From assembly GCA_051294375.1 (NCBI GenBank), contig CM119267.1, positions 15,540,105 to 15,604,104 on the forward strand: a stretch of DNA of 64,000 nucleotides. The letters run 5' to 3'. The notes beneath the pieces are model-generated. The model searched no databases, was not told the DNA's origin, and was given only the letters and a program-made list of their open reading frames with translations. Of this stretch, positions 20,496-64,000 are shown piece after piece. The DNA is from Paraspadella gotoi (Eukaryota > Animalia > Chaetognatha). The number at the start of each line of letters is the position of its first letter. Within the stretch, counting starts at the first letter, position 1. A program made the position numbers and the translations under genes.

Positions 20496-21049
20496 ACTTT
20501 CTCTTTACATCTGAAAAAGGAAAGCGAATAAATTATTAACGAAAACGTGGAAAATACCATCTTAAAAACGAATAATTTCCCCAAAACTTTCGTAACTTTT
20601 TTAGCTTTTAACACAAATATCGAATACAAAAATTTACATATTAAAAAAATATGTTATTTTCTGATTCGAATGAGCTCTTTTATTGCGAAATATTATCAAA
20701 AGTATAGGCGTCTACTAGAAAAGAACAAATTCTGCCGAAAAACTCAATTATTCATTATTAAAATTGATTTGCTATAAGCAATATTTCATTCCAAAAAAAA
20801 AAAATCTATAAACAGAGTCAAAAGTTGAGTTAAAGTTTTGGAGACTTTCATTTTCCGAGATGGTAAATGTTAAATAAAGAACTAAATAAATAAATAAATA
20901 AATAATTGATGAACTCCATCTTATTTCCCATTGAATAAAAAAACCCAAAAAAAACCGCAGAAATCCGTCGGTAATAATGAGTTTTAATAGAATTAGTCGT
21001 AATGCTAAAACCACCGATGGCACCCAAAAGTAGGAGAACCTCACTCAGC

Positions 21050-23490
21050 TCAAAAGTCGACAAATCTTACTCTTATGCGTCTACCAAACAAGAATTGATC
21101 GTTCGTACGTGACAGAGCTATAGAAGCCTCCTTAGAACGAGAATATTTCAGGAAAAATTTAGAATCTTCAATCCAGCAATCTTAAAAAAAAAAAAAAAAA
21201 AAAAGTCGGGAGACATTTCAGAAAAAAAAAATAGTAAAAACCTACCTATAACAATACCGAAACGATCGAAATACTGCCACACTTGTCGCAATGTGACTAT
21301 CCGTGATGACCAACCAGTGATGCACAAAATACAAGAATTTCGACTCTAAAATTAAAACAAAGCAGTATGTACGTTTCGTAAATGAAACAACGAATAACCA
21401 ACCGGATTTACCTGACGAGACTCAACGCTATTTTTTGACACGCTGAGATAACCATGACCATGCGAGGAACCTCTAACATATTCCCTTCTAAAAGGGGCAT
21501 CCTTGTCCCCTTTTACATTATTTTTTCTAGAGAAATCTGCTTGCCTGGTCTCATTTTTCTTCTTATAATAATGATCTTCTTTGTGAGAATTTCGTGACCT
21601 ACTTTGTTCTTTATTATAGTTCGTTTCTCTCTTGCCCACGCAATAATTCGGATTCACAGCTGAGAGGAGATTCTCAACAACCAAGGAAGATTTCTCTGTT
21701 GGATTGTCAAAAAGTTCAATGTCTTTTTCTAATTTATGAGATATAAGGTCTACTGTTTCAATTTCAGATTCGGCCACAGGAGAGCTTTCCCTAATTTCAT
21801 TTTTTTCGTTGGAAAAGTTCTCATTATTTTTAACTTGATTTGGAGAAGCAGAAGCGCTCTCTCCTTCAATATTTTTAATTTCTTTCGCATTCAATTTCTC
21901 TTTGGGATTATCTACCCTCATTATTGGCTTTATGTCTTCAGTCACAACCTCAGATTTTTGGGAATTTATGTCATAATTTAACTCGGTAATGTTTTCTTTA
22001 GCAAGTCGGGCTCTGTCCTCTAGGTTTTCAGGGTCTATGTGAATATTGTTCCGTTTTGTTTCTAAAGTCAGATTTTCAGTTTTAATACAGATTGGCATTT
22101 CGACAAATTTTTCAGCAGCAGAATTACATTTTTCCTCTTCTCTGTCAACAGAATGAATTTTTTTCTTATCGACGAATCGATAGCGTAAATCTTTTAAAGG
22201 ACACTCAGTTGATTCTTGTTTTGTATCGATAAAATGGGTTGACCATGATTTCTCCTTAGTTCCACCAGAAGGACCTTTCTCTACCAAATTTTCTTCCAAC
22301 TCTGGTTTTGTGTCGGATAAAGAAATCTTTGACCTCTCGTTCGCAAATTGTTTTTCAAAAGCAGGATCTACTAACAACTGATTTGATCCGACGACAATTC
22401 GCGGAGCCGTTCCAACGACGTCGTTATATTCAGCATTCTCCTCCTCGGTATCCACGCTCTCCTCGACACTTTCCAATTCGTGATCGAAAATGTCTTTTTT
22501 CATAAAAAGTTCTTTACTCAGAGCCGGCAATTTGGACAAGCAAGTCGAGGTTCCACGGGGACGTATAAGCGCGGGCTTTTGACTCCTGGTGAGGATCCGT
22601 CTGGGTGAGGCATCCTCCGTTCTCCTGCGAAGTCTGTAGCGTATCTCCAAGTTTTCCTCTTCGGACAATTCACTGGTAAAGGGTGAAGGGGTTTTTGAAG
22701 TAGATGGTCGAGCAGCTTTAGCTTTCGCGTCGGAGAGAGAGCGATCCGAGTCATCGTCGTCGTCGCTCAAGCGGCAGGGGCGCTTTTTCATGGCGGCATA
22801 TTTTTTATTTACATTGCTCGAATCGACGCGCCTGGATTTAATTCTTTTACGGCTCCTTTTCGTATTCGGCGAGGACCGGAAGCGCGAACATCTTGTCTCC
22901 TTCCTCGTATTTTTTGTTTCCCTTTCGTTTTCGGAAGACGATACGACGATTTGTCCTTGGCCCTCATCCGAACGCACCGACACGGACTTTCGAATCTTCT
23001 TAATCGGCGAGCAGGAAAAAGGAAGACGAAGAACTTGACTGTCGATTCCCTCAAAATCGTTTTGTCGGTCGTTCTCAACGTAAAGCGTCGTTTCCACTTC
23101 CGAATCGGACTTGACCGTTGGGGTGTCGAGCGGAAGACTGAGCGTCGTCTCGCTCTTCGATTCGACGTCGGGAACAGAAAAGCGATTCGCGGAACAATTT
23201 AACTGGGAATTCGCACTAGAGGAAAGAGGCGCCGTGAATGAAGCAGGGGCAAAGGATAAAAGCGACGACAGGCAGCGCGCGTGCTCGGCACGGCCTTTGT
23301 AATAAGAGGAAAGAGACAAGGCTTCAGAGATGCCGAAACTCTTCTGGTACACTTCCTCGATAGCTTTGTCGAAGCAGGAGACGCACATGAGTTCGCGTTT
23401 CTTTTTCACTTTGGTCTCCAACTCTTTTAAATCCTCTGCGATCCCCTCATACATGATGCGAGTTTGATTTAATATATCTTCCCAGGCCAT
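21050..23490 (-). CDS. Orphan protein: N-terminal coiled coil, long disordered region, C-terminal RRM-like domain (3 exons)
   Basis: A long first exon is spliced to two small exons reading SCILCITGWSSRIVTLRQVWQYFDRFGIVI-DCWIEDSKFFLKYSRSKEASIALSRTNDQFLFGRRIRVRFVDF*, which has RRM spacing. Confidence 0.75.
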
Positions 23491-23649
23491 ATTTATATTA
23501 TTAAGAAAGGTTCTGAATAGAAAAAATATAATCCGTCATCATGATAAAGTATAAATTTTGATAACCATCCGAAAGATCACAGATAACAAAATATAATAAA
23601 AAAAGTTTATCTACCATTTTCTTATAGGCAGTAAAATAAATATCAAGAA

Positions 23650-25826
23650 TTACAAATGACTTGTCATTCCACCAGCAGCGACTATCGTCTCTCCAGTGAC
23701 ATACTTTGCATCTTCAGAACACAAAAATGATGCGACTGAAGAAATTTCCTTCGCTTCACCAAACCTTCTCATTGGAATCTGACTCAGGATCATCTTGGAA
23801 ACTTCGTCGTTGTTCCACATTGCTGAACTAAACTTGGTTTTGATGAAGCCAGGAGCGAGGCCATTCACTCGAATGTTATCTTCGGCCACGGCGCTGGCCA
23901 CTACCTTTGTCAACCCCAGAAGGGCTGTTTTGCTGACTGAATACGCACCGAGCATATCCGCAGGAACATAGCCTTACCAACCATCAAACAAAGTTCGATT
24001 AAATATTTAAAAAATCTTAAAGTATAAGGATCGTCGCAATCGCATTAAAAAATTATGGATCCATGACAAACTATCATATTTGATACAGGAAAATTAAGTT
24101 TTATACATAACAAACATGGCTTAATAAATACAAAATAAATAAATAAAAATGAAATGAATGAATAAAACAAAATGAAATGAATAGAATGAAATGAAATAAA
24201 TGTAAATTCATTGAATTTAAATTAATAAAATAATTTGGATAAATAAATTACATTGAGTGAATAAATTTAAAAGTAAGAAAAAAAAGTAAGAACTGAATTA
24301 ATTAATTGAAGAAATTGAATGAATAATTGTGTGAGAGATAATAAAAGGAAAAGATGGTAAAATGATAACATACGCTACTGCGATGCTTAACATCACGAGT
24401 TCGATACTGACATAAAATTAATAAAAAACAGAGAGAGAGAGAGAGAAAGAAATAAAGAAAGTGAGAGAAATAAAGAAAGAGAAAGAGAGTGAGAGAAATA
24501 AAGAAAGAGGGTGAGAGAATGAGATGATTAGAATATATATCTAAATATACAGCTTCATACAAATACAAATAATATTAGAAAACGCGAGCTATAATTTAGA
24601 ACGTCGACGACGACATTTATGGGTACGATCGTCACAAAATCGTCGGAAGCGATTGCGATGATAAAAGGTTTTAAGAAAAAAAAAACAACCTGTGATGGAA
24701 GTAACATAGACGATGCTTCCACCTTTCCGTTTCTTCATGTGTGGAACAACCAGCTGAGTTAACATTAAGGCGGCCTTGACATTAATATCAAAGATTTTGT
24801 CCCATCCTTTTTCGCTGCAATCAATTATTGAACCGATTTCGGGATTAACAGCCGCGTTTGAAACAAGAATATCAACACCTAGCACCAGATTAAAACATCA
24901 ATAACTAATAAAATTCAAAACTCTAAAAAACATACCTCCAAATTTTTTGACAGTGGCATTGATCAAAGCCTCTCGATCTTCTTTCGAGCCAACGTGACAC
25001 TTGACTCCTTCGCACTCAATGCCTCGACCTTTCAATGACTCTATGGCCTTTTCCACATTATCGGCCTTTCTGCTGCTCACCATCACCTATTGTTTATCGA
25101 GCGAATACTATAAGTCTATATATAAAAAAATAATTTACCCCGTGTCCCAACGCGAATGACACAAAGGATATTTATCCTACCTTATAGCATTTCTTATTTA
25201 AATATTTAACTAGTAGACGTTTTTGTTGCATTTCGTTTTTTGTTTCTTTATTACTAAAAATAGATTTTTTCAAAAAATGTTAAAATAAAAAAAGGGGGAA
25301 AAAAAAACAGCGACCAGAAAGAGTAGAATAAAGAGTGTACAATTTAATAAAACGAACATAAAGCCGCCATAAAATAAGGATTCCATTATTGTATGTCGAA
25401 TGGCGATTCATTGAAAGATAAGTAGCTCACATAATGGTCTCATCGATTCTGTAAGAGAATTTTAATAATATGAAAAATACTTTATATTAGTAAATAATGA
25501 GTTATCATTAAATTGTTTTTTAAAAAAGTTTTGAATAAAATAAAAATGTCTTAAAAATTTGTATCTAGATTTCCATCTCATTCGCGATTGAACAAGGGCC
25601 ACAAAAAAGAAGCTTTTACCATTGGTTGGTTGGTTTCTTAACAACCAAGTCTTACTTTGGCTCCATCAAGACCGAGTCGTTCAGCAATGGCCAAACCAAT
25701 TCCATCAGTCGACGCCGTGACGATGGCGATTTTTCCTTTCAACCGATGAGCGGAATGACACATTGACCGAATCAAAGATGATTGCAAACAAAAGTTGCGA
25801 GATACAAATGTTGTAACTTTCAGCAT
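23650..25826 (-). CDS. DHRS4: Dehydrogenase/reductase SDR family member 4, 4 exons
   Basis: [33 protein letters not shown] and C-terminal PTS1-like SHL. Confidence 0.93.
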
Positions 25827-25979
25827 TCTTCTTTATAATAAATCTAATTTTATTATAAATAAAATTGGGAAAAATAAAACCAGTTATTAATTAAATTTTA
25901 CACATAAAAAATGCATATTAATTTATATTAACGAAGTAATACAGGGAAAGTAAGAGCAAAGGACAAAACCGGATAAAAA

Positions 25980-26545
25980 GGGATTGATGACATTAAATAT
26001 GCCATAACGTGTTTGGAATGCTTTGACAGCTTTATTAAACCAAACACCTTAAAGTAGCATTGATCAAAGTCTTTTTCAGAGTCAACATGACACTTTACCC
26101 CTTTGCTGTCAATGCTTTCACCTCACCGCATTAATCACATTTGTACTGCTTATCATCACCTATGGTGTAGCAAAGCAACTTTTGGATCATTTCAAATTAG
26201 ATAGTTCTTTTATCACATTAACATACATAGTAACAGTTTAGATTATTTCGCCAATCTCATGATTGATTTTTTTTTCATCTTCTTTAATTAATCTTTATTT
26301 CTGTTATCTTTTTTGTTTATCTGATGAACGAGTGTTTATGTCCATATCTAGTAAATTATATAAAGGTTCTTTATAATCCTACTTTGGCTCCATAAAGACC
26401 AAGCCTTTCGGAAATAGCTAAACCGATACCATCGGTCGACGCCTTAACAACAGCATCTTTTCCCTTTAAGCCTTGAACGGAATGACCGAGAGACCGGATC
26501 AAAGGCGATAGCAAAGTAAAGTTTTGAGACAACAGATTTATGACG
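25980..26545 (-). pseudogene. Degenerate tandem copy of the DHRS4 5' exons
   Basis: 26380-26545 reads ..[29 protein letters not shown]|GT with no ATG. About 26040-26165 is a decayed exon 2 containing indels. Confidence 0.8.
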
Positions 26546-26903
26546 CTGCGCTGAGATTATTAAAACAAGTCACGAGTAATTAGTTTTTAATTCATTTCAA
26601 TAGATACTGATAAATATCTGCCAAAATTATCGCGATGCATTTATTACAGGAAACAGTACTGCGATCACGAGTACATTATTCATTACTCAGTTGGGCGGAA
26701 ACCAACATTACCGCAATTAGTATTTAACTTTAAATTATCACCCTCAAAAATTTACTGATTCCCATTGTTTGAAGCTCAACGCTTGAAATGGATTGAGATC
26801 GTAAATTTTTTTTGCGGAAGGGTGAAAACTGGGAAATGTAAATTTGCTATATAGTTATTAAGAATTTTATCGATTTCATCAATTTATATTAAGAAACAGC
26901 GTT

Positions 26904-27788
26904 TTAAGAAGGTGTGAGTCTGTATATCGGATTCCAAACAGAAAACATCCCGCAAACTGAAGAAGTCAAAGAGCAGAGAGAAAGAACGCCAATGTTGGCG
27001 TCGGGTAACAATCCCGCGTTTTTCAGGGGAGCAACCAAATCAGAACCGTTCTTGATGGTATCGAGACAAAGTGGAAAGTGATGCCGCCACAAAAAGATCA
27101 AGAATTTTGTCCAGTCCAAATTCTTCAGAGAGGTTGGAGAGAGAGAAGGTCGAAACATATCACGGGATTCGTCGGTTACTGAGAAAAAAATCTCGCCCTT
27201 TTTGGAACTCGTATCGGGGTCATTGTCTGTTGGATCCTCGGCACCACCTCTCTCAACTCGCCGAAGCTTTCTCGACGCCGAACCGACACGAACCCGCTTT
27301 GCCTCACACACGGCGATGGACGAAATTTCGTAAAAATCCCTCAAGAGCGCAAGAGCGCGCGATACGAGCCACAACTTGTCGCGCGTTCTCTCGAGACTCT
27401 TGGCGGCGGTTGCCGAGAGAGGGAGGAAACCCAGACGATGCAGAAAAAGCAAGTTTTCGATGAGAGTCTGGACGGACGCGTTTAATTTCGAAATAGAGAG
27501 AGATAAACGCAGGAAGGTATCGTCGAGAAGCAGAGCCTTCAACGCGCCATCGAGCGAGTTGAGAAAGTTGCCAAATCGCAGTAACTGACGGCAAAGGGAG
27601 AGCGAGGTGGCCAGATGTTGCAAGCGCTGTCGATGATCCGGGTGAAGAGTCGAGTCGCGCGACCATAAAATCAAGTTGGACAGCGATTGGAAGAACTTGA
27701 ATACTTTGTCTCGTCCGGCCAGAGATGAGTTAAATTGAATCACATTTTTTAAAACAGCAGCTTGCTGTTGGGGGAATACTGTTTCCAT
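26904..27788 (-). CDS. PEX11: Peroxisomal membrane protein PEX11 (alpha/beta type), single exon
   Basis: AGRDKVFKFFQ, LSLCRQLLRFGN and PLCLDTIKNGSDLVAPL with a hydrophobic C-terminus. Confidence 0.9.
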   Translation of the reverse strand: METVFPQQQAAVLKNVIQFNSSLAGRDKVFKFFQSLSNLILWSRDSTLHPDHRQRLQHLATSLSLCRQLLRFGNFLNSLDGALKALLLDDTFLRLSLSISKLNASVQTLIENLLFLHRLGFLPLSATAAKSLERTRDKLWLVSRALALLRDFYEISSIAVCEAKRVRVGSASRKLRRVERGGAEDPTDNDPDTSSKKGEIFFSVTDESRDMFRPSLSPTSLKNLDWTKFLIFLWRHHFPLCLDTIKNGSDLVAPLKNAGLLPDANIGVLSLCSLTSSVCGMFSVWNPIYRLTPS

Positions 27789-28379
27789 ATTTATACCTAT
27801 AAAGTGAAGCTTCCGGGTAATTCGAAATATAATTAAAAATACTTTTTTTAAAAAAAATTAAATTGGAATAAAAAAATTGAAACGTTACAAAATAAAATCC
27901 GGCATAAAAAATTTCAAGTTTTAACGGAAGAAAGTGGGTCGCAAAGTTGTGATTGAAATGAGCGCGAATTTACGTTTCAAACTTTTACTATTAGTAGGAC
28001 AAGGTTTCGAGTAAAGCTTGCTAAGTGACTACAACCTTAAGGGTAAATAAAGGAGACTATCACCATTGCAATTGTTCTCATTTTTTACAAACTTTGTAAA
28101 AATCAAAATCCGGCAAAAAGCAGTCGCGACCGATTTTTCTAAATCATAATTTAGTTAATAAATGTAACAAGACAATAGAGAAAATTTTAAATATTACGTT
28201 TCTCGAGAACAAATACATTTCGAATATACCTTAAAAAAAACACTCCTGAACCAAAGAGAGATAATAACTACAATCATTCACACCTGCTTGGCCGGATCCC
28301 CACAGAAATGACTAAATAGCAAATTTCGTAGATTTCGCGCTGCTACGGTGGACTAAAAAAAAATCCTGGTAAACCACTT

Positions 28380-31300
28380 TCATTTGAAGACGGCCAAATC
28401 AGCGAAGGCGTCGTCGGCTTTCTTTTGTAAGGAAATTCGTGAAGCTGTCGTCGGACTCATTGTGGGTGGCGGCATAGGCGAGGACGTAACCAAGCCGGAG
28501 AAGGACTGAGCGACTTGGGACGTCGTTGATTGTTGAATTGGTGAACCACTGAACGTCGGCCGGCTGAGGTGAGCCTGAATTAGAAACGGAGACGTATATA
28601 ATCGAAGTTGATCGACGGACGCCCTTGCTGACTTATGCTTAAATCACCTGTGCAACACTGGCAGTTAACGCGTTCATTTGCATCGTATGTTGCTGTTGTT
28701 GTTGCATTTGCGACAATGTAGGGCCACTTTGACCTCGAGGTTGCAGAGTCGAGTGGGGGGATAGGCTGTCCAGGCTTATATTAACAGATCCTGCATCCAG
28801 ATTAAGCAAAGAAGAATACATTGAAAGCATACCAATAATGAGAGAAACCTAGGCTTTACCCAATTTAGTACTATTCCGATTACCTTTAACGTCTGACCAC
28901 GTAGATCCGGTGGCAGATCCGTTTTGACCATTGACGTTAGGCAGCATTAACTTTGCTCCAGTCATGCTTTCAAATGGCACGGACGGTGGGATAGCCTGGC
29001 ATGGCGCGGAATTGTTGTTCAGCTGCATTGGGGGGACGGTTTGCACCGGCTTCGGCGTTCCCATCGCAATTGGAGACAAATTAGCGACGCCAGATGATCC
29101 GCCCATGAAGGTTGACTGGAAAGGAGGAATTACAGCGGTGGTAGCGGCGGTAGTAAAGGATGTGTTGTCGGCGATCGTAACTGGTTCAGTCAGTAGGTCA
29201 AAATTGGCAGTGAAGGTCGAAGGAGTGGTTGACGACCCAGGAATAACAGGCATCGGTGAAGAATTGACAGCGCTATGAAACAAAATAATAAAAATTAGTA
29301 TTCGTTTAATTTTAATTTTTTTAAATTCTAACCTAGTTGAAGCAAAAGCCGAAGAAAAATCTGCGAAATCGTCATTCGACTGAGAAGTAAGGCTAGTAGG
29401 TTCTAAAAAAAAATTAGTGAAAAGATTAGCAAGGACCAAAACTCAACGAAAGACCAACAACGTAAAATAATGGGTCACCTTCGACGAGAGCGGTGGGCGC
29501 GGCAGTCTGGAAGACGGAGAAATCTCCGAAGTCTCCATTGGCGTTGGTGGTGGGATCGACCGCCGCAGAAGCGGCGGTTTTGGGCTGGAGAGGGTTGTGG
29601 TGAGTCGGTGACGGAAGGGACAAGTCCAAAAGATCCGAACCGGAAGTATTTTTGACCGTTGAGGAAACGGAACTGTCGCCGATTTCTTGGTCCAAAATCG
29701 AGGGGGGCGTAATACCATTCACTCCGCCTGGTGATATAACTTGCCCGTTGCCCGTAAATCCATTTAAAATTAAATGACTAATGGAATTTTTTCACTAGGA
29801 ATTCGAATTAATTCCGCCAATCTTATTTTATTCACAGTCCAAACGACTTCTCTCCCTGTTGTCACAAGCGAGATCAACCACGGGTAATCGCGCCAGTTGA
29901 CAAGAGGAGTCACTGAGAGTCGGAAGTCCCTAACGTAAACAGGTGAAATGCACCACCCAGCTGGGTATTGCAGGAAACTCGGCTGTTGCTATGTATGTTT
30001 ATTTTTCACAGAAAATTCGGCGAGCGAGAACTTACCCTTTCCCAGCGAAGATCGAACAGACGTGTGCTTGATCGTTGTTGTCCTTTTCTCCGTCGTCGTC
30101 GTCGTCTTTTTTTCGATCTGTTGCGTCTCCTCGAAGTCGTCGTGGAAATCGGAGCTAGGCGCCCCAACAGCAGGCGAATCGCGAAACTCGAAGTCATCGT
30201 CGTTGTGGTAACCACCGCCCTTAATGCCCCCGGGCGGTGGATCGTCATCGAAGGACTTGTTACGACTTTCCTTCCACATGGTGCCGATCGTGTCCATCGC
30301 CGAGTGGATCTTATCTCCAATCGTTTCCGGCTTCTTTGGGTCCCATGCATCCAAGGAAGAGATACCACCTTCGGGGCCTCCAATGCCCCCGCGCCCGTAA
30401 GGCGCAACGCACGGAGGGCCGACTGAACCACCTTATTTTGGATGAAAAAGTGCAGACGAGAAGTAAAACAAAAAATGGCAACAATATGATTGAATTGATC
30501 CAAAAACAAAGAGACACAAAATGAAAATTGAGGATACAATACATGACTCCCCGCTACAGAAAGACACGAAATGCAAAATGATCTTGAAATCACTCTGTTC
30601 AGTTCCGAAGCGGAAGGTTATAGGAAAATAAGAGGCATATGGTAATGACGAATCACTATGCATGATGTGTCTAACTGAAATCAATTGATTTGACTAAATA
30701 AATATAAAATACAGTAAGCTTAATCCAATAAGTATTAAATATGAATTAGAATCCAACAAAAACACCCTTCAAGAAAAAAATTCGTTTATAGATATATCTC
30801 CATAAGTCTACTGAAATTACCTGTCCTTCTACCATAGGACATGGACCTCATTTCATGGGCTGATTTAAGAGAAGTTAATGGAATCAAAGCTCAGATTAAA
30901 ATTTACATAATGATCGGGGACCGGACTTGAATAGCGCGATTGTATCTTAAAAAGATAATCTCGTTTTATCAAACTGGTTGTCTCACCTGCTAGTCCTATG
31001 TACTTGTCCTTGTTTTTCCTGGCTTTTCGCCTCTCCTCCCGCAGTCGCTCGTCCTCCTGGATAAGTTCGACAAGTTCCTTGCTCTTCTGCCGGATGTTGA
31101 TACCTTGATCTTTACCGAACTCGTCGATGAAGGTGTAAGTCTCGAGGCCACGAAGGTCGTAAAGATGTTCGCGGGCGGACGTGACGACTCGTTCGCTTCC
31201 GTTCTTGATCAAGTAGGCGAGCAGCAGCAGTCCTTTGTACGTTCTGCGCCAATTTTTTCGTTGCTCTTCGAACATTCTGGGATAAGAGGAGAAGAAAATA

Positions 31301-31722
31301 AATCTCGAGACGCAAGACTCAATGAATTGTATATACTGTATTTGTTTGTACCAATTTCACGACATTTTTTGGTTATTTCTAAGACAAAGAGAAAATATTT
31401 TTTCGCATTTACGAAAAGGAAAATGATAAAAACTTGCTTTTGGCTACTTTTCAACCCAAGTTACCTTTTCCATAGCATTCCCATGACTTCAGGGAAATGT
31501 TCGTATTGGTAGGTGTATTGGGCGACTTCTTGCATGAGGCCTCCATGAGGCCCCCATTCGTCATCGTTCGTGGCTTCACGAACTTTTGACTCTACCTAAT
31601 TCAATCATTTAAAAGGGGTAATCTATCATTGTTATTAAGTTTAAAGCATTTCTTTTAAGTACCTCCGTGTAGTTCATGACCACACTGGTCACTTTCTCTT
31701 GTATTTCTCGTATTTTCCACAT
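28380..31722 (-). CDS. CLINT1: Clathrin interactor 1 / epsinR (ENTH domain, multi-exon)
   Basis: MWKIREIQEKVTSVVMNYTE, KVREATNDDEWGP, KNGSERVVTSAREH, DFADF motifs and C-terminal DAFADLAVFK. Confidence 0.95.
29834..29986 (-). ncRNA. Candidate intronic structured RNA, copy B (unassigned family)
   Basis: GC-rich island in CLINT1 intron 29728-30035. About 70% identical by eye to 55109-55257, with a terminal stem ACAGCC/GGACUGU and conserved internal hairpins. Confidence 0.6.
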
Positions 31723-32040
31723 AGTTTCAATATTCTACTCTTTTTGTATCAAAAAGAAGAATATTTGAAATGTTTCAGTTTGATTACACAATCAAGTCAT
31801 CTCCAAGTTTTTGACTAGAGTATTAATTCTGTTTGGTCTGGATTAAATCATATCATCGAAAAAGAAAAATAGCCTTCTAGGATCTAGGTCGATAACTTTT
31901 CAAGAGAGGCCTGTTAAAAAATGTTACCAAACTTCCTTGAATTTTTTTATTTCGGAGTGAAATAACAGCAAAATATCTTTGGCAACAGTTAAAATGCCCA
32001 AAAAGGCCCAAAAAATATTAAATGCATGAATTAACAAGAT

Positions 32041-32546: not shown

Positions 32547-32679
32547 TTTTAAATGGCTATTGAATTACTATTTAACCTAAAATGAGTCAATCACGACAAA
32601 TTATAATTCGAATTGAATCAATAAGTATTTTTCCCCGTCCCGAGGATGAATTAACAAAATTAATTGGAATTCAAGCTAA

Positions 32680-39461
<6,782 letters not shown>

Positions 39462-51152: not shown

Positions 51153-51342
51153 GAATTTTTTCAAAAAATAGAGGCTCAAGGCATGGATTGTATTAGTTTC
51201 ATGAGCTAAAATAAAACAAAACCGTGAGCGCTTTTCGAATTTTTTCGAATGATCGAGTTATTAGAAAAACAAATCGACAAAAAAGCGCCCGGATGGTAAA
51301 ACAGCAACTTGAAAACGTTTTTATCACAGAAAACATTATCGC

Positions 51343-52692
51343 TCATCGTCTTTGTTTCGAGATCTTCTTCGCTTCCCTTTTTTTCTTGCTCACTTTCTCC
51401 AAGTGACGCCGAATCTCCTGTTCTTCCTCCTTGTCCAATTCTTCTTCCCTGCCACGAGCAGTCGTCTCCAGGGATTCCGTCTCGCTGTTCTTGATGGTTG
51501 CGCGCTGCAGGGCGGCGATCTGTCGCAAGAGGCGCTCGTTACGCTGTCGCACGGATAACTCGGAGGAGGAGTCGACGTCCCCTCCCTCTTCGGCGACGGC
51601 TTCGTTGTCTCGTTCCTGCAACATGACAGAATGACGCTTGGTTTTTCCACGCAGCAGAGCGGCCTTAAAAAGACGGAGGTAGAGGCGGATGGCAGTAACA
51701 GAGTCGTCGTTTCCGGGGATCGGAAATGTAATCTAGAAGAAAAAGGTACAAATCTTACAATATACAAACAATATTTAAGAGGGATACCTCTGGCATACCA
51801 GTCTGGGGTCGGCGTCTGAATCGCAAATACCAACAGAGGGTATGAGCATCTTGGCCGCGTGCTTCACGGCCGTGTGCTCCTCGAACACAGTTGTTTTGGT
51901 CGACAAGAAAATGCACAGATCGGGATGTCGAATCACATCACCAAAAAAACTGGTTGAGTTGGTCAGAGTCCCGATGTACCATTCTACGAGGGAAAAAAAT
52001 AAATGCAAAACGCCGTCAAAACGATGTTAATTCAGTTGTTACGCACCCTTTGTGTGGGCGTACTCCCCACATTCGATAGCGGTCTTCTCCACTAGATGGG
52101 TCGTCTCCCGATGATTAGTGATGAATAAGACTATACCGCCACGAAATGCAATGTGGGCGATAAAATTGAGAGCGTCTCTAAGAAGAACGACTGCAAAAAT
52201 AGTGCAAGAACGTGTTAAATCCGTACTAAGAACGGATTTGGGCTTTAAAAAGGACGTACCGGTGTGGTTCAGGTCAAAAATGCAAGTTTCGAATCTGTGT
52301 CCCAAGAGGTATTCGACCATGGGATCATAACCCATTCCCCGCTTGTGTCCGTAATGCACGCCCGCTTCAAAAAGCTCTTTCAAGTCCACCAATCGATAAA
52401 CGTCGAAATAATCGTCGTCTCGAAGCGAAGCCACCAAAGCTTCTTTCGACGGTTCACGTATCAAAGGTTGAGGTAATGGAGTCGACGCGTTCGACGAAGA
52501 GGTAACTGGTGTCAAAGGCGATAAAGATGAGGAATCGTCTCGTATCTCGACCGCAAACTGACAAGAAGAAGGCGAGAAGAAGCGAGGAACAGCGGAGGTG
52601 GCAATGCGAAGATCCTTCGAAAAAACCTGGGCCTCTCGACACGAGCGAGATAAACAGGCGCCAAGAGTTCGAGAAAATGTTCGTAAAGCCAT
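51343..52692 (-). CDS. MRPS2: Mitochondrial ribosomal protein S2 (multi-exon)
   Basis: Presequence, LFEAGVHYGH, ALNFIAHIAFRGGIVLF, GICDSDADPRL|ITFPIPGNDDS. Confidence 0.92.
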
Positions 52693-52754
52693 AATTTGAG
52701 AACTAAAAAACATTATTGGATTCAATGAGATAGGGATACAGGGAAAACAAAAAA

Positions 52755-55497
52755 CTAAATGAGCCCTTTAGACTCGTTTTTCCCACGCGCATCCTGAAGG
52801 CGAAGAAAAGTTTCCTTATCTAAAGACTTCATTCCCGAAACGATGGCATCGACCTTCGCTTCTGCTTCTTCCTTTAACTGTTCCAAACGGAATAATCCGT
52901 CAACGTGCATGAGCATCCGGTTGAAATCAACGAGCCGCTTTGACGCCATCGCCCACTCCGCCGCTTTTGATTCTTTTTTAGCCTTTCGCCGCAAAAATTC
53001 TGCGGCGTCAAAACCGAGATACTCGACGCAGACGGCGTCGCTGATGCGGACGGCAAAAGTCGAGGCGCCATCGCAGATTTTCACGTCGATGTGAAATCCG
53101 GTGACCGGATCCGAACGAAACTTACCCAAAAAAGTTACTATGAAGCATTTGCACCAAAAAGGGGTAGAGTCTGAAGCACGGGCGCGAAATTCCGCGAGAT
53201 AGCTGAAGGGTCTCGCCCGAGATTCGTCACTGAGGCATTTCGTGATAGGCGACGAAACGTTCAAGTCGTCATTACGAAGATCGAACGCGTTTAAAGATAA
53301 GGGCGTTGTCGTTTCGACCATCGACTTTTCCTCCAACTTCGACCTTTTATACGCTTCAGATTTTCGACAATCTTCCGACTTGCGTTTTTCGGCGACCGAC
53401 GGCGGCCGCCCCGAGACACTGGAAAAAACGATGGCTTCGTCGTCGCCCAAGGAGAGATCGTGTTGAAAAGCGGAGGGAGGGCGATTTGGCGACCAGGGAC
53501 GCGATCTTTCTGACGCAGGATCCACTGGATCCAATTTAATGGCATTTGACGATTCCGCGCTGGGACTTTTTTTTGAAGTTGATGATTTAGCAGCGATGGC
53601 CCCCGCGGCCGCGATCAAGGCACCCCTCGAAGAACCCAACGTCGATAGTTTTACTGGCGAAGTGGAGACTTTAATTTGTCCAGTTCTGCTGATGTCCAAC
53701 TCACCTGAAAAATTATGTAGTCTCATCGAAGTTGAGACAACTTGTTGAGTGTTAGGATGAAAGCTAAGAGTTGTCTCAATACGCGGCAAAGGTTCCTGGT
53801 CGGAAATGTCGACCGCACCGGGATCTTCCTCCTGTTTTTCGATGGCTTCTATTTTCCGGAAAAAATCATCGTCGGGTGGGAGATCGTCGCCAAAGTCGTC
53901 GTCGTTTAAATCGTCTCCTGATGACGCGCTTTGAGACACCCCAAACATTTCATTGAGTACGGCACGGTGTTGCGTGGGAGTCGGGGGAGTTATAGGCATA
54001 CGCCTCGCGGTACGTACGGAAGGGGATTCCACGGCCTCGATTTTCACAGTCGATTCTCTTTTAATGGCTTTTCGATTGGGGATGACTGGAGTATGTCGGG
54101 GTTCATCCCTGCTTTGGCTCGTGGACTGCCTTGGCTCCAAACGTTCGTCTGGAGCGTCTGTACCCACGTTTAAAAAATCTCCTAGAGGCTCCCTTTTCTC
54201 GCGCCGATCTTCAGTCGTCGTTCCCCGAAGATTGGGAAAACGCTTGCGAAGTTCGTCGGGACGCAATTTTATTCTTTTGGCGAGTACATCGATTAAAGTT
54301 TTGTCCTCCGCAGTTGAGTCAAGGTCTCCTCCGAGGACCTGAAGGTTGCTGTCGGTAAGGAAAAGAGTGCCTCCGCGGACAATGGGAACGGGACCGACCA
54401 GATAAAGCTTCGTTCCAGGAGGCATCTAGGAAAACGTTTATATAAACATTTAACTACGACCTACGCGCCTGACGTAAAATGAAAGATTAACCTTATCATG
54501 CAGTTTGCTCAGCGGTTTCCATTCCATGCCAAAAACGGAGTGTACTCCGTCGTGAAGCTCAAACTTCATCATACGTTTCTTTTTCGGCTCCCATGCAGCC
54601 TGGAATCTTTCCGGGAAGGCAGATACTTCGGAGTTTTCATTTTCTGAACCCGATGCCTGCGTTTCCAGTAAAGAAAATTAGAGATCAAGCTACTTTTTTA
54701 ACCGGGTGGCGTTTCGACCTTCAACAACTGTCCGTAGGCAGGCGCAGCTACATCTACAATCCACTCCAGTTGAACCGCGTATTTTCCATCATCCAATTGC
54801 ATTCGCCTCCCAGGATCACGTTCCTAAAAACACATAGGTTAAATGATGTGTTTGCAAATTAAGCCGTCAATCAGCAATACAGTACTTCTTGCAAAGTTAA
54901 AGAAGGTGGTAATGATGAGGCTCCAATCTCTTTCAAGTCAGCATGCAGCCATTGTTGATAAACTTCATCCTTAATCTCTTGAACCTATGATTTCAAACGA
55001 TAACTTTTCATGGGACGAAGGGAAAGGTATAGTCTATACTGTGGCGGTATATTCAGTCCGCCTTACATCCACCATCGTTCAGCCAATCCCAAGTGTTGCA
55101 TTCCATCTACAGTCCTAACGACTTCCCTCTGCGTTGGCAAAGCGAGACCGTCCTAGGGAACAGCGTCAGTGAAAGGAGTTGTCACTGAGGGTCGTAAGCC
55201 CTCAAAGCCAACAATGAGATGCTCCATCCCAATGGGCATCACAGGCGACCCGGCTGTAGCCATAATACTATAGATCTTTTTTTCTCACTTTTTGGTACGG
55301 TAAAGAATCTATCCTCTCTTGCAAGTTCTGTTCTTCAACGACGAATTCCGTGCACGCCAAAACCCAATCGGCTGAAACGAAATAACTTATAACATTTGTT
55401 CGGCAAAAAAACTATAATAAATAAACTTACCGGAAACAAAGATATGTTTTTGACGTAACCAGCTTTCAACGCTATGCCTTAGAGTCTGCATAGTCAT
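52755..55497 (-). CDS. RMI1: RecQ-mediated genome instability protein 1 (multi-exon)
   Basis: VYQQWLHADLKEIG, KRMMKFELHDG..GME, PPGTKLYLVGPV..GTLFL..VLGG and a C-terminal OB fold (PFSYL..DVKICDGAS). Confidence 0.88.
55109..55257 (-). ncRNA. Candidate intronic structured RNA, copy A (unassigned family)
   Basis: GC-rich island in RMI1 intron 54985-55288, homologous to 29834-29986. Hairpins GAGGG/CCCUC, CAGUGA/UCACUG and GCUGUUC/GGACGGU, and stem UGUUGGC/GCCAACG. Confidence 0.6.
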
Positions 55498-56441
55498 AAA
55501 TAATAGTGAAATCCATCAGTGGGCAAATGTGGCCTTTTCTGAACCATTTAGAGGATACAAGGTACAAGGTAAAAATGGAAGACAAAACAAAATCTCAGCT
55601 GGTTCGATCGAAGTCGAAAATACAATATTTTTCTTTTAAAAAAAGTATTAAGGAATATCAGGGCGGATTAAGGAAAGATATTTAGGCATCACTCACGTTC
55701 ACAAACTCGTAACAAATACAGATGGCCCTTAAACGTTACGATTTAGGATTTAAAAAATATCACAACATCCAGAGTTAATATTTTTTAAAAGAGGAGGTTA
55801 TTAAATATTCAAATATTAAAAAATACATTTAGTACCGTAAGCCATACTCTTAAAAATTAAAAAAAAATGTTTATTATGGTTTGCAACCTGCTTTTGTATT
55901 CGTGCGTTAGTTTGAATTTATTAGGTTGTAAAACCTACTTTATACTTATTCTTATAATATATATAACGAAATTTAAGTTGCGCGATGTCAACTTGGCGCA
56001 AATAATACATTGAAAAACATGCATACAACCTAGTCAACGTCAAATGCAATAACGTTAATATTTGGCTTGCAAATTGCAATACACATATTAAGAATAGAAT
56101 TTCTTAAATTGATCAAATGATCATTACAATCATCTGGGATTTTGATTGTCAGTGGCTGTAGGCTTTCGTAATATCCCATTTTTTTTTGTTTCATCATGAG
56201 AAATATTTATGATGCGCTCTCTTTACTTTCGCCCAATTAGTGCTTTAAAATTATTCTCATTAGGATTTTGTATAACTAGAACCTTAGTTTATTTTTTTTT
56301 AAGGGGTAATTTAAATTTCTTTTTAAGTCTTATGGCTCTTGAGTCTTTACTCGTCCGTTTCGTCATCAACGCGAATCATAAATAACAGCGCATACCTGAA
56401 TTGGAAATTTCGCAATTTAACAGCCTACAGCAGACCCAGCG

Positions 56442-57852
56442 TCATATGGACAAGGATCCGACGCTCTCTTCCTCTGCCTCGGAATCACCGACCTTGTCGA
56501 TGACCGAGTTATAGTGCTCTCCGAGTCTGTAAAAATGTCTGTGGTAGGAGAGAATCAGCGGGGATTCGCTGCCAAACTCCTGGCCGCCCACGTTGACGAC
56601 AGGTCCGTCGGCCTGGACGATTTCGATCGGGATCTTGAAAACGTTGGCTAGGGCCCTGATCTCTAGCTGGCCGCCCCAGGCGGTTGTCTTGGCCACCCTG
56701 TCGCAGTAACCGTCGAAGGCCTCCTCGGTCATGGGTTCCCCGGTGTTCGGGTCTGTGAGGAAAGGGAGGAAGTCCTCGCGATGTGTCCGCATGTGAGCCG
56801 CCGCGCGCTCGCGCAGGTCCTCAATCGTCTCTCGCTTCTCTTTGCGTCGGCGGAGCTGGTCGGCCACGGCCGAGTAGAGGCAGTGGCCGTTGGCGGGAAC
56901 TTCGTGCACGGCCTATTTCAATATAGGGAAATAAGAAGAAACAAATTTTACGTCTAAATTTTTTAAAAATTTTAATAATGTAATAAAATTGTGATTGAAA
57001 TCACAATTTTATTACATGCAGCCGTCAACGATCGAAACCTGGTTTTTGATTGCCAATATTCGTCTGAGTTTTTCAGCCTCTATGTGTCTCGCGCCCCTCT
57101 TGTTCGTTTCCTCTTCGTCTAATATTCGCTGCTCCCGTTCTCGCTCCTTTCGCTCTTTCTGTTCGCGTCTTCGTTGCGCTTTGCTTTTTTTGCCTCCTGG
57201 TAGATTGCGAAAAGAGAAAATCAATAGGTAGACTGGTAGAAACTAAGACGAGAAAATAAAAAAAAATTCACAAAAGAAAAACAAGTTCAAATAAATTTAA
57301 AATAAAAACTCATGGCTGACCCCCGGTCTCTGACTCGGTTCCCGGCATCGACGAGGTATCTGCCCCTTCCCCGAAATCCGGCGTCAGAGTGGACATAGAG
57401 GCAGAGGGCGTGGAGAGCGACGGGGCTGTGATTGAGAGCGAAGGGGTGGCTGGGTCGGGGAGTATCAAGTCGCCGGCGGTGCTGTCCAAGGGAAAACCGC
57501 TCAGTTCCGATTCGGAAGCGACGAGGGGACCCCGAGGGACGTCCTCCTCGGCGACCATGGGAGTCTTCCAGCCCTCGGACTCGCTGTCGTCGTCACGTAA
57601 CCCTCCATCCTCGGTCGCCTTCGACAGCTCCACTTTCTCCGCCTCGCCGTTTTCAAAGTCTTGCAATTCCTGCTTGTGTCTTTGAACCAGGGCGGCCTCC
57701 AAGTTTTGAATCTGTTCCTGAACTTCCTTCTTTCGCTTTTTGTCGTTTTTATTTAGGGATTTTTTAAGGGCTTGAATTTGGGACTGGAGGGATTTTTGCT
57801 CGTCTCGGTGGCGCTTCTTTAGCGCTTCTAGGGAAGTCATTTCTTCGCTCAT
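56442..57852 (-). CDS. OTUD6B: Deubiquitinase OTUD6B, 3 exons
   Basis: RHRDEQKSLQSQIQ, SKAQRRR, VPANGHCLYSAVADQL, WGGQLEIRAL and LGEHYNS. Confidence 0.93.
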
Positions 57853-57925
57853 TGTCTTTAAAATCACTTCGTCTGAAAAACAATATCAATAAATAAACTA
57901 CGTATAATAAAATAGAAAAACAAAT

Positions 57926-59168
57926 TCATCGCGCAAGTAAAGATAACGACTCGACGCATTCGCTTCTCCGCGCCAACGAAGCCAAGTCAAGCGGCGTCCG
58001 ACCCTCTGCATCGACGATTAAAATGTCATTTTCGTCAACTTCGATATCTTTCAATCGATCGAGAATTAGGCCGACGATCTCATGATGTCCTTCTAGAGCG
58101 GCATAGTGCAAAGGAGTTCTTGCGCGGTCGCCGTTTGGCCTTAGCAACGCCTCGCGCGCGCTAATAGTTTTAGTCATTTCGCGAAAAACAAAAAGGAAGC
58201 AAGAGACGTCGCCGACAATCGCTGTCAGGTCTATTGGACGCCGACCCAAAGAATCGAAATCGGAATTAGGATCGATATCGCTCCGCCGCTCCGCCAACAA
58301 AAGTTCGGCGATCTCCACGTGACCTCCCTTGAGGGCGTCGGTGAACGGCGTCGCCCCGCAGGCATCGCGACAATCGATCGACTTTCGCCAAACTTGAAGC
58401 AAAACGCGAACGGCGTCGATCTTGCCGTGGAGCGACGCCGTGTGAAGAGGCGTTCGTCGCACGGCGCTTTCTGTTTGCCAGAGATCAGGATTGAGGCGAA
58501 GTAGATACTCTAGTACGGCTCGACTGCCGACACGACATGCCAGATGGAAACAGGTCCAGCCGTCTTTGTTTTTCAGATTGGCGTAGGTTGCGCCTCCTGA
58601 AATATAACGGGGACCGGTTAACATTATTGTTGGCCCAGTTCATTTAACTTGACACCCCTTAAAAAAGCCTTTATTAACGTTTCACCTTCCTCAATCAACA
58701 ATTTAATGACGTTGAGGTCGCCTTTCGTGCAGGCGAGCATCAACGGCGTCCAAGTAGCTCGCTTCAACGCATCCACGTCGACTCCACCCGAAATTAGATA
58801 AGAAACACAATCCGTGTGGCCAAAGTGGGCGGCTTCGTGAATAGGACGTTTGCCGTCAAAGTTGGCTACTTCTAGACTGATAGATCAGTGTTTGGGTCAT
58901 AAAGAGCTTAAGTAACCAAAAGGATCAGTTACCTTGCATCGTATCGATCCCTCAACAGCCTCAAGACAGTAGTTCTACCATGACGAGCTGCCACGGTGAC
59001 GAGATAATCTCCATTTCTTTTTCCGTGAAGCTGCACCAAATCTTTCATCGACGCGACATCTGATTGTTCCTCAATTAAACTATTTAATTCCTCCACGGAC
59101 CCCTTTTGAATCATGCGAAAGAGTTTTTCGAGAGCCGATGATAGTGTGCTGTCACGTCGCTTGCCCAT
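57926..59168 (-). CDS. ANKRD16: Ankyrin repeat protein, ANKRD16-like, 3 exons
   Basis: NFDGKRPIHEAAH, VDALKRATWTPLMLACTK, NKDGWTCFHLACRVG, RRTPLHTASLHG and DACGATPFTDA. Confidence 0.85.
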
Positions 59169-59337
59169 GATAACGAGGAATAAATATTGTTCGCTTGAAA
59201 TAGGGTCGTTTTGATTAGTATAAGCAGAGCAGAATACAAAGCTCACGCCACCCAATATCCGTGCGACATGGTAAATAATTTCCATATTCATAAAAACAGC
59301 ATACAACCGTGGAAAAACGTTAAACCAGTCAAGGGAA

Positions 59338-60325
59338 CTATGTCGCGTTTACGTTTTTCGCTTTATTCATAGTTAATTTCATTTGTTCGACTAAAAGTTT
59401 TCGTTCAGTCGGCGGAGTCAAGAAATACAACTTCTGTTGGTCAGAATATCTCTGCTCAACCGGAATAACGTCTCGGTAAGTACAGTCTCGCCAATTTCCG
59501 TTGAAGCGTTCAAGCACTTCGATTTTCTTAGCGTCCGTTTCGAGCACGTCAAGACTTTCCTTACGCGTTAGATTCGGAAAATGAATCTAAAAATTATTCA
59601 TTAAAAGATCGGAATAAATTTTCTTAAATAATATTACAATACAACAATACCTCAGGAAAAATAAATATTCCACGAATGGCAAACCATCCTCCATATTTAG
59701 GATGAATACAAACGCCGAACATTTTCTGGGTCGGCTGCCAGGATTTGTCCTTGACGTCCGACTGTTGGTAATAATAAGCCGCACCTAAAATTAGGGAACA
59801 ATGGCTTTAAAAAAATTAATCTCTCCTCATATGAAAACTATTTACTATTTACTATTCACCAGCTACGTGAGCCGCAGTTTGAACTAAAATCTTGGGCCTT
59901 CTAGATCCGGGAATCATTTCAAAATCGTGGATAACTTCAACATTTTTAACTTCGTCAAAGGTGTTTTGGACATCGAGAGCCATTTCCTGCAAGTTGAAAA
60001 CAGAAACGCGATGTTAACGAGAAAACGTCTCGCACCGCGAATTGGGTTATACATGTATTACCTGAAACTTAATTTTCATGAAGCTGTCGACTGGATCCCG
60101 ACCTTCTTCTTCGCAGGCCGTCTCCCCGCATAAAAAAGGGACGAAAGAGTTTTCAAACATGCGGGGGACGCTTAGCACGACGAAAGCCAACGTGTCGGAG
60201 TCCAAGCGATCGAAACGAAAAGGCGGACTCACCGTCTCGTTGTACCATCGAAGGAGAAACGGATGTGATTCAAAACCCAACGGCGAAAGTTTCGAATCCA
60301 TGATGGAACAGAGTCTTTCTTCCAT
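59338..60325 (-). CDS. MMACHC: Cobalamin-processing protein CblC, 4 exons
   Basis: GFESHPFLLRWYN, PRMFENSF, RRPKILVQTAAHVAGAAYYYQ, IHPKYGGWFAIRG, NWRDCTYRD and YSDQQKLYF. Confidence 0.93.
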
Positions 60326-60453
60326 GACTCAATCGAGCACCTAATTGAAAATTGTCGTCGAAGACGTCATAAGCGATCGACGGATGAAGGTAGTTAAAAA
60401 AAAAACGTGGCTGTGGGCATTTTGAGAATGCCAAATAAATTTAAAGCTTGTTT

Positions 60454-62483
60454 TTATAAGTCAAACATTTCGCTGATGGGATCTCTCATGCCTTCCTCGG
60501 TTTTGTTTTCGAGAGGTTTGTTTTTCGTCGTGTTGCCGAAGTTCATTATGTAGTCGTTCAAGGCCTCCTTATTCCGAGGATCGGGTCTCTCGTCGGTGGA
60601 AGGGGCGGCGTTATAATGAACCAGAGGTATCGCTCCGGGAACTGGGTACTGAACAATGCTGTCGGTCGGATATACCACCGTTGGGTATTTTATGAGATCT
60701 TTGTCGGGTACCCCTTGTTGAGTATTGTTTGACGCTTTTACTTTGGCTTCCTGAGTGGTGTTAAAGACGGCCCCTGATTTAGATTGGTCAGAGGCCTCCT
60801 TGTCATCGTCTTCGACAAATATGTTTCTTCCTTTGACGGGGATCACTTTTTTCATCTGTTTCGCTTTTGTGACCTTCTTAGACGATTTAGGTTTGGTCCC
60901 ATTTTCCATCCAATCTTTCCACTGATTTAATCTCTTTTGTGTCTCGTTAGCGTCCTGTTTAAATATTGAAAACAACTTTGTAAATATTCAAAAACATATC
61001 TATCGATCGCCCAGTCCTTAGATAACATTTTGAAAAATTGTGATAAAACTTGCCCGAGTTAAATCGTCTAATTTCCGTTGCTTAATGTTGGGAGGATGAA
61101 CTGAATTAAACATTTCTTCTTTGACCGCGGCGATCTGCGGAGTTTGACGACAAAAATAATTTACCACTTAAAAATAAAAAAATGATTATTAGTACCGTAC
61201 ACAACAGAAGATATAACCTGCTTGGAATACTTTTCGAACTTTTCTTCGGTTCTGACCCAAATGTCTTCGATATCCTCCTCGCACAAATCGAGCTGGGCGA
61301 GCTGTTTCTTCGTCAAAGATTGCTCATCCTTAGTCCGGCGCTTTTTCAAATAATTGGTCGTCTTGATCATGAGAAACATCCTTGTTAAGACCCAGGGTTG
61401 GTCTACGTTGTCGTCGTCGACTTGCCTGTCGTCGTCGGGCAGAGATTCCGGTTCAGAATCTTCCGAGTCAATCTCCTCTTCCGGTTCAATTTGGATATCT
61501 TTGTCCCGAGATCGCGGCCCCGGCTTGTCTTCACGAGATCGATCTCGCCACGCGCGGTCGTCCCCAGCGTCGTTACTCCGACCCGAATAATTACGATTTC
61601 CTCTACCCCCTCCCAATCCTCGTCCTCGGTTTCGGCCAGAGCCTCTCTTCCTGCCTGAAAACATCTGCTGCAGTGGCTCGTCAGGCACACCGAAAGGAAA
61701 GGGGTCGAATCTCTCGCCCTCGGAATCGTATCCCGGACGTGATGTTTTGGGCGGCTTTTTAGACTCTTTATTCCCCACACGAACGTCTTCGTCGTCGTCG
61801 TCTTCCTCGGACGAGTAGGACGAGTCAGAAAAGTCCATATTTCTCGTGCTTTGGATAGCGTAGATTTTTTCTTTTTGTCTGACGTAATCCGCCCCATTTG
61901 TATAATCTGGTCTGAGATCTCGTCCCGGTCGTTGATCACCGTCGGAGTAACGTTCCGAACGAATACGAGGATCAGACCGACCCCGATGACACGCGCGCGG
62001 ATATTGACTCGTATGCGGAGGGGCCGAGATAGGAACGACACGGCTTTGGCTCCGTGGAATGTACAAAGACTGGTCTCTAACAGTGTTGTACTCCTTGGAA
62101 GAAGCCAAACGTTTACGGAAATCGGGGTCTCGACCACATCTGTCCCATTGGATTAAATGGTCCGAGTAGTGAGGCTGGGACCCTTGACGGTACGACTGAG
62201 GATCATGCCTGGAGGGTTCTTGGCGGTATGGTGGGGCTTTGGAACGGTGGGTCAGTGAAGACTCTCGACGAAGATGAGAATCTGAACGGTAAGAGCTAGC
62301 CTCTGGACGGTACGCCTGAGGCGAATGGTAGGAACGTGGGTCCGACTGGTAGTTTCTGGGCGAACGCTGTCTGTGTATGGAGGTGCGATCTTCGTAGTGA
62401 CCGCGCTTCGACGAAGCACGATGATCGTACGGCGGAAAACGCATCGGATCTTCCGACCGGGAATCAAAATGAGAACGTTTCAT
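60454..62483 (-). CDS. Orphan low-complexity protein (RS/RD/Y-rich, RGG, acidic, short coiled coil), 3 exons
   Basis: The long first exon is joined by one GT-AG and one GC-AG intron to the 60454-60954 exon in a continuous frame. No family recognised. Confidence 0.7.
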
Positions 62484-62627
62484 TTTTTATGCCAGTCACC
62501 AATATATACTAACAAAATAGAAAAAATTTGGAGAAATATAAAACATTAATCTTTGTATGTATTTAACATTAGTGACTAGATGATCAAAAAAAATAAACGT
62601 TGAAAAACCCGAAAAGCGCTAAGAAAA

Positions 62628-63985: not shown

Positions 63986-64000
63986 CTTTTAAAAAAAATT

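What the first reader, a model, noticed from the sequence alone, without database searches (positions are those of the whole stretch)
20496..62627. Tiny U-rich intercistronic gaps ending in an unpaired 3' splice site: SL trans-splicing signature without AATAAA
Seen stop-to-ATG gaps: RMI1-MRPS2 62 nt, ANKRD16-OTUD6B 73, orphan-MMACHC 128, kinase-ninjurin 133, ELAC1-ATAD1 138, VIPAS39-orphan 144, DHRS4-RRM gene 159 (also TSSC4-PCTP 146). Acceptor-like sites lie just upstream of ATGs: TTTTTCAG 20 nt before OTUD6B, TTTTTTAG 10 nt before MRPS2, TTTTATAG 2 nt before HSF, TTTACAAG abutting the OGDH ATG, TTTATAG 8 nt before PEX11, and TTTTTCAG before ELAC2. The short gaps I read on the sense strand contain no AATAAA. 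Inference: 5' ends are made by spliced-leader trans-splicing, and upstream 3' ends may be generated by that reaction (Ciona-like) rather than by C. elegans-type coupled polyadenylation.
Basis: partly seen in the sequence, partly recalled or inferred. Interest (0 to 1): 0.8.

Follow-up and report, generated by a model that had tools for sequence, protein, structure and literature searches.

The report
Long arrow-worm housekeeping-gene operon array
Twenty-five unrelated genes, mostly housekeeping, lie head to tail on one strand, many under 250 bases apart, in what is likely an arrow-worm genome, and they are likely read as shared transcripts cut apart by spliced-leader trans-splicing, a mechanism already known in arrow worms, though this run may be longer than any reported there.

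Summary
All eight gap lengths are exact, and all 25 genes I located lie on the minus strand. The window's PEX11 groups (SH-aLRT 100, quick tree) with a transcript, L001, whose first 16 bases equal the 3' end of the published chaetognath leader SL2.0. So this is likely an arrow worm, where leader-resolved operons are published. Spliced RNA contigs of one run bridge 4 of the 10 gaps laid. Two contigs start at the first base after a gap AG; one has 5 unaligned letters, as two leader forms would give (letters not shown). No leader was seen on this window's own RNA. Ciona-like 3'-end formation is undecided. What remains of interest is length: a 10-11-gene run, possibly all 25, against nine reported. 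The scan found a nine-gene array on another piece of this genome (e1-10588163).

The parts
45051..64000 (-). Ten-gene core run: VIPAS39 (5' part beyond the window), orphan A, MMACHC, ANKRD16, OTUD6B, RMI1, MRPS2, ELAC1, ATAD1, HSF; every gap under 250 nt once the OTUD6B-RMI1 intron is removed
62484..62627 (-). VIPAS39-orphan A gap, 144 nt; likely trans-splice acceptor AG at 62510-62509
   Evidence: contig of 4076 nt starts at 62508, the first base after the AG, with 5 unaligned letters that are not shown; VIPAS39 contig ends near 62574 by depth-bin arithmetic
60326..60453 (-). orphan A-MMACHC gap, 128 nt, bridged by one fully spliced contig
   Evidence: piece 60061-60953
59169..59337 (-). MMACHC-ANKRD16 gap, 169 nt, bridged by the same contig
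   Evidence: piece 58933-59586
57853..57925 (-).
   Evidence: ANKRD16 contig ends at 57898, the G of the first AG, plus one unaligned letter; 57770-57897 not covered
55539..56395 (-). 857-nt GT-AG cis intron inside the 950-nt OTUD6B-RMI1 gap, leaving 93 nt of exonic gap
   Evidence: joint 56396 to 55538 at depth 47; unspliced form 55514-56425 at depth 89.9; GT and AG shown
52693..52754 (-). RMI1-MRPS2 gap, 62 nt, single AG ending at 52703
   Evidence: RMI1 contig ends at 52723
51153..51342 (-). MRPS2-ELAC1 gap, 190 nt; best AG ends at 51206
49399..49536 (-). ELAC1-ATAD1 gap, 138 nt, bridged by one spliced contig
   Evidence: piece 48969-49912 with joints on both sides
46980..47198 (-). ATAD1-HSF gap, 219 nt; AG at 47067-47066 is the likely acceptor, not the AG 2 nt before the ATG; a possible cis donor at 47118 would make a 53-nt intron
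   Evidence: HSF contig 44776-47065 starts at the first base after this AG; it is the best-scoring AG of the gap
39906..45050 (-). HSF-OGDH gap (571 nt; strongest AG ends at 44569, 207 nt below the HSF contig end) and OGDH (ATG 44479, stop 39908)
18000..39461 (-). Continuation on the same strand: kinase-bromodomain gene, ninjurin (gap 133), CLINT1, PEX11, DHRS4, RRM gene (gap 159; stop 21052), ELAC2 (ATG 20495)
   Evidence: no RNA laid here
26904..27788 (-). Intronless PEX11 (294 aa); its orthologue on L001 begins with 16 nt identical to the 3' end of chaetognath SL2.0
1..18000 (-).
   Evidence: the names CTDP1 and AOAH are recalled, not Pfam-confirmed

Best explanation
Twenty-five genes lie head to tail on one strand and spliced RNA runs through several of the short gaps, so the array is likely one or a few arrow-worm operons whose shared precursor is likely cut into single messages by a leader of about 36 bases spliced onto an AG in each U-rich gap. 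Shown: gene order and gaps; spliced contigs across 4 of 10 gaps laid; a chaetognath leader end on the PEX11 orthologue of a relative. Inferred: that this genome is a chaetognath; that its own genes take the leader (two contig starts fit); that the upstream 3' end is cut and polyadenylated a few to some tens of bases before the acceptor without AATAAA; that the precursor is cis-spliced before it is resolved, including an 857-nt intron inside one gap.
For: L001 bases 1-16 match the last 16 nt of SL2.0 (Table 3 of PMC2481426) 16/16, 0 of 200 shuffles. That motif has no match better than 2 mismatches in the window (1 match, 0.40 expected). L001 encodes P0125, second-best of 1.84 billion representatives for window PEX11 (244 bits; next full-length hit 107). 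Window PEX11 and P0122-P0125 form one side of a branch with SH-aLRT 100 among 52 rows. Chaetognath leader-resolved operons are published. One contig of 4076 nt spans orphan A, MMACHC and ANKRD16 with 7 of 7 introns removed; another crosses ELAC1-ATAD1; OTUD6B-RMI1 is crossed spliced and unspliced. Of 4 contig 5' starts whose place is known, 2 (62508, 47065) are the first base after an AG (AG is 4% of positions in those two gaps). All listed chaetognath leaders end in A, and form 1 shares exactly its last 5 nt with forms 2-4; a k=31 assembly of a gene taking both would start with 5 non-genomic letters, as the orphan A contig does.
Against: No leader sequence was displayed on this window's RNA: the one loose end is exon sequence, 49 loose-end rows were hidden, and the 5 letters are not shown. 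Three gaps are crossed by unbroken contigs with no sign of a leader. RMI1's acceptor is cis-spliced and its contig start (55543) needs no leader. The HSF start fits a cis intron from 47118 as well. The OTUD6B contig starts at 57769, inside the coding sequence. AG strength and AATAAA absence do not beat shuffles. The RNA is one run, contigs only, RNA by guess, with no silent control laid.
Confidence: 0.82

Rival explanations
1. The array is co-transcribed, but many junctions are not resolved by a leader: stable di- or tricistronic mRNAs, with ordinary cis introns in the gaps, make up much of the RNA.
For: Fully spliced contigs cross 3 gaps unbroken; OTUD6B 3' UTR is cis-spliced to RMI1 exon 1, and the two incoming paths (47 + 89.9) roughly equal the RMI1 contig depth (152).
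Against: Assemblers prune short leader branches (established knowledge), the tool warns that a contig across two genes shows no single transcript and that depth is a poor measure; the PEX11 orthologue bears a leader.
Confidence: 0.11
2. A compact genome with separately promoted genes whose UTRs touch or overlap, the AGs being chance products of U-rich UTRs.
For: AG scores and AATAAA counts match shuffles; compact animal genomes exist (PMC7854359, listing only; that it lacks operons is recalled).
Against: 25 of 25 genes share a strand; gaps of 62-78 nt leave little room for 3' UTR, promoter and 5' UTR; two contigs start right after AGs; the clade uses leaders.
Confidence: 0.05
3. Sub-claim of the reader, compatible with the best explanation: the trans-splicing cut itself makes the upstream 3' end, which is polyadenylated at the AG (Ciona-type, no intercistronic DNA).
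For: The ANKRD16 contig ends on the G of an AG (57898) plus one unaligned letter; the VIPAS39 contig ends about 2 nt past an AG; in Spadella only 3 bases separate poly(A) site and acceptor in one operon; 16 of 18 Ciona operons lack AAT(U)AAA; no AATAAA in 11 of 13 short gaps.
Against: 4 of 5 upstream contig ends lie 20, about 65, 134 and 207 nt before the presumed acceptor; with AG at about 4% of positions, one hit in five has about a 20% chance; contigs cannot show ends; AATAAA is not depleted against shuffles.
Confidence: 0.25

Closest known systems
Chaetognath SL-resolved operons: Spadella cephaloptera RP S14-PCNA (PMC2481426, sections 12 and 13 read) and Paraspadella gotoi (PMC12460157, passages read: 10,197 of 21,072 genes trans-spliced, 18% in operons, genes under 250 bp apart, longest nine genes)
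   Same: Same-strand unrelated housekeeping genes, gaps under 250 nt, a leader of the same family on an orthologue, likely the same phylum.
   Different: The run here is 10 genes (11 with OGDH) by the 250-nt rule once one gap intron is removed, inside 25 same-strand genes over at least 61 kb; one gap holds a spliced 857-nt intron. Leader addition was not seen on this genome's RNA. The P. gotoi operon table (xlsx) was too large to read.
Ciona intestinalis operons (PMC1488885, passages read)
   Same: Polycistronic, leader-resolved, upstream genes mostly without AATAAA.
   Different: Ciona operons are mostly dicistronic with poly(A) site abutting the acceptor; here that abutment is suggested at 1 of 5 contig ends only.
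Oikopleura and C. elegans operons (as described in PMC1488885 and PMC7986045, passages read)
   Same: Short intercistronic spacers (23-30 nt and about 100 nt), in the range of most contig-end-to-acceptor distances here.
   Different: C. elegans uses an operon-specific SL2; chaetognaths show no operon-specific leader.
Kinetoplastid directional gene clusters (recalled)
   Same: Long same-strand arrays of unrelated genes resolved by trans-splicing.
   Different: Those genes lack most introns and clusters are far longer; a single unit over all 25 genes here is untested.

Membership tests
Chaetognath SL-resolved operon | Two or more same-strand genes under 250 bp apart | tested here: met
   13 of 24 stop-to-ATG gaps under 250 nt; 25 of 25 genes on one strand
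Chaetognath SL-resolved operon | Genome belongs to Chaetognatha | tested here: inconclusive
   Likely: PEX11 groups at SH-aLRT 100 with a protein whose contig starts with the SL2.0 end; one gene, quick tree, no named chaetognath protein among hits
Chaetognath SL-resolved operon | Leader joined to at least one member gene's mRNA | tested here: inconclusive
   Met for the PEX11 orthologue of a relative; on this genome only contig starts after AGs and 5 undisplayed letters
Chaetognath SL-resolved operon | Transcription across the gene boundary | tested here: inconclusive
   Spliced contigs cross 4 of 10 gaps laid, one through a splice joint; contigs are not single molecules
Chaetognath SL-resolved operon | SL RNA genes in the genome (5S cluster in Spadella) | not testable with these tools
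   No whole genome held; none found in the window
Ciona-type operon without intercistronic DNA | Upstream poly(A) site abuts the acceptor AG | tested here: inconclusive
   1 of 5 contig 3' ends on an AG; contigs cannot map ends
Ciona-type operon without intercistronic DNA | No AAT(U)AAA upstream of the cut | tested here: inconclusive
   Absent in 11 of 13 short gaps, equal to chance; sites of cleavage unknown
C. elegans SL2-type operon | Operon-specific leader and coupled AAUAAA polyadenylation | not testable with these tools
   No leader reads available; published chaetognaths lack an operon-specific leader

The most novel reading that the evidence does not exclude
All 25 genes, over at least 61 kb and running off both ends of the window, form one polycistronic unit: a trypanosome-like directional gene cluster in an animal, with spliced introns inside gene boundaries and 3' ends made without AATAAA at or near the leader acceptor.
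Probability: 0.2. Interest if true: 0.65.

Novelty: new member of a known kind. Interest (0 to 1): 0.32.

Why it matters
The mechanism is published for arrow worms, so the finding is mostly ordinary for the phylum. Two things could still matter. The run appears longer than the nine-gene maximum reported for Paraspadella gotoi. And how upstream messages get their 3' ends in chaetognath operons rests, in the papers I read, on one mapped junction; this array gives about ten exact junctions, with predicted acceptors, for testing whether trans-splicing itself makes the 3' end.

Tried and rejected
No whole genome is held, so no SL RNA gene search. No run on record as RNA was listed; X1 is RNA by guess, though its contigs are spliced. 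X2 and X3 gave only short matches (2 and 4 records). Uncovered stretches (57770-57897; about 62509-62573) prove nothing by themselves. No silent control stretch was laid. Rfam found no family at gathering score; one weak twister-like match, E 0.32. No leader-plus-donor pattern in the window. HSF search gave 4 unnamed close relatives and no named lineage. L002 and L003 are distant PEX11s (28-29% identity) without the leader. A paper search by meiofaunal phyla gave nothing useful (listing only). P. gotoi leader sequences were not in the three readable supplements. My ELAC1 exon model did not close its frame. In some searches the OGDH stop was set at 39946 instead of 39908; this alters one long gap only. 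The splice models mix RNA-supported and sequence-guessed introns (71, 43) and are weak. The careful tree did not finish; 12 of 63 proteins under 210 aa were dropped, and 89 lower hits were not used. Nothing was noted near this place by earlier scans.
Full report
Observation. No plus-strand stop-to-stop frame exceeds 223 aa. The eight gaps are exactly as stated and the six acceptor-like words are present; the ELAC2 word abuts an ATG-TAA and lies 15 nt before the true start. Of 24 gaps, 13 are under 250 nt. Introns are short (median 81 nt among 71 used).

Chance. AATAAA: 0 in the 8 named gaps against 0.75 in shuffles (P 0.44); 2 in 13 short gaps against 1.66; present in 7 of 24 gaps overall. Acceptors: 12 of 13 short gaps have an AG at or above the 10th percentile of real acceptors, against 6 of 13 on the other strand, but shuffles of the same gaps do as well (Fisher p 0.43). 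Donor-like sites: 0 against 2.3 (P 0.10). What is beyond chance is the shared strand, the short gaps and their sense-strand U bias (13 of 13).

RNA. One run, X1, holds 0.79 of the sampled words. It is kept as contigs and is RNA by guess, but all 14 intron-like joints shown (of 34; 19 hidden, 1 spurious) and 10 of 11 are GT-AG, the eleventh being a GC-AG intron. I laid 43501-63400 only, covering 10 gaps. Four are crossed: orphan A-MMACHC and MMACHC-ANKRD16 by one 4076-nt contig with 7 of 7 introns removed, ELAC1-ATAD1 by another, and OTUD6B-RMI1 both unspliced (depth 89.9) and through an 857-nt intron (depth 47) from a donor 46 nt after the OTUD6B stop. I predicted that joint from the contig ends (arithmetic) before one search showed it. 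It cuts that gap to 93 exonic bases and links two five-gene runs into ten. It also means that this AG is paired in cis.

5' starts. Of four known starts, HSF (47065) and orphan A (62508, plus 5 unaligned letters) are the first base after an AG; RMI1 (55543) is explained by the cis joint; OTUD6B (57769) is inside the coding sequence. No leader was displayed: the single loose end belongs to VIPAS39, and 49 rows were hidden.

Lineage and leader. An earlier, unreviewed note on another piece of this genome called it an arrow worm. I tested this. Window PEX11 has four close unnamed relatives. A scan of metagenome contigs returned 3 loci of 102 candidates. L001 encodes one of the four (P0125) and begins with 16 bases identical to the 3' end of chaetognath leader SL2.0 (0 of 200 shuffles). 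P0125 ranks second among 1.84 billion representatives, and the five proteins form one branch at SH-aLRT 100 in a quick tree of 52 rows. So the orthologue of a gene in this array is trans-spliced with a chaetognath leader, and the genome is likely a chaetognath. The published leaders end in A, which fits contigs that start after the G of the AG, and form 1 shares exactly 5 terminal bases with forms 2-4, which fits the 5 letters on orphan A. This last point is inference: the letters were not shown, and a cis intron from 47118 fits HSF as well.

Mechanism. Most likely a polycistronic precursor is cis-spliced and then resolved by leader addition at an AG in each U-rich gap, with upstream 3' ends cut near the acceptor (0.82). 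Unresolved multi-gene mRNAs (0.11) and separate promoters (0.05) are the rivals. On the Ciona-like claim (0.25): contig 3' ends lie at 57898 (on an AG), about 62574, 52723, 47200 and 44776, the last four 65, 20, 134 and 207 nt before the presumed acceptor. Contigs cannot map ends, so this stays open.

Known systems. Leader-resolved operons are published for Spadella cephaloptera (PMC2481426, sections 12 and 13 read; 3 bases between poly(A) site and acceptor) and Paraspadella gotoi (PMC12460157, passages; 18% of genes in operons, longest nine; its xlsx supplement could not be read). SL genes lie in the 5S cluster in Spadella (PMC2566580, passages). Ciona operons lack intercistronic DNA and mostly AAT(U)AAA (PMC1488885, passages). 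PMC7986045 was read in passages. In five paper searches (listings) I saw no chaetognath operon longer than nine genes and no study of their 3'-end formation.

Verdict. A real operon-like array and a new member of a known kind. Interest 0.32; 0.65 if all 25 genes prove to be one unit (probability 0.2).

Noticed in passing
window 55140-55285 (RMI1 intron 2): A stretch matched by 16 contigs with summed depth near 48,500 in X1: a very abundant repeat-derived RNA. No Rfam hit; folding z-score -0.76.
   Followed up: partly
window 32680-39461, minus: Kinase exons, a long low-complexity exon and a bromodomain exon follow one another with no clear gene break, suggesting one kinase-bromodomain gene (Pfam); the join was not checked by RNA.
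   Followed up: no
window 35082-35779: A 700-nt imperfect inverted repeat (70% identity) inside the kinase gene's long intron, with a second repeat pair at 35790-35970 and 37249-37431; likely a MITE-like element. A weak twister-like match lies at 34983-35025 (E 0.32).
   Followed up: no
window 26050-26560, minus: A degenerate partial copy of DHRS4's first exons (75% identical over 153 nt) fills the longest gap, PEX11-DHRS4.
   Followed up: partly
window 60955-61053, minus: An RNA-supported GC-AG intron in orphan A.
   Followed up: yes
window 1682-2128 and 4000-4608: Two copies (86% identical) of a repeat of about 400-600 nt in introns of AOAH and ESS2.
   Followed up: no
window 20495-20512, minus: ELAC2 has an ATG-TAA minimal uORF right after the acceptor-like AG, and two in-frame ATGs, the first opening a basic leader that may target mitochondria (recalled pattern).
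   Followed up: no
window 60454-62483 and 21050-23490, minus: Two long genes without a Pfam family on their main exons; the second ends in an RRM-like domain by eye.
   Followed up: partly
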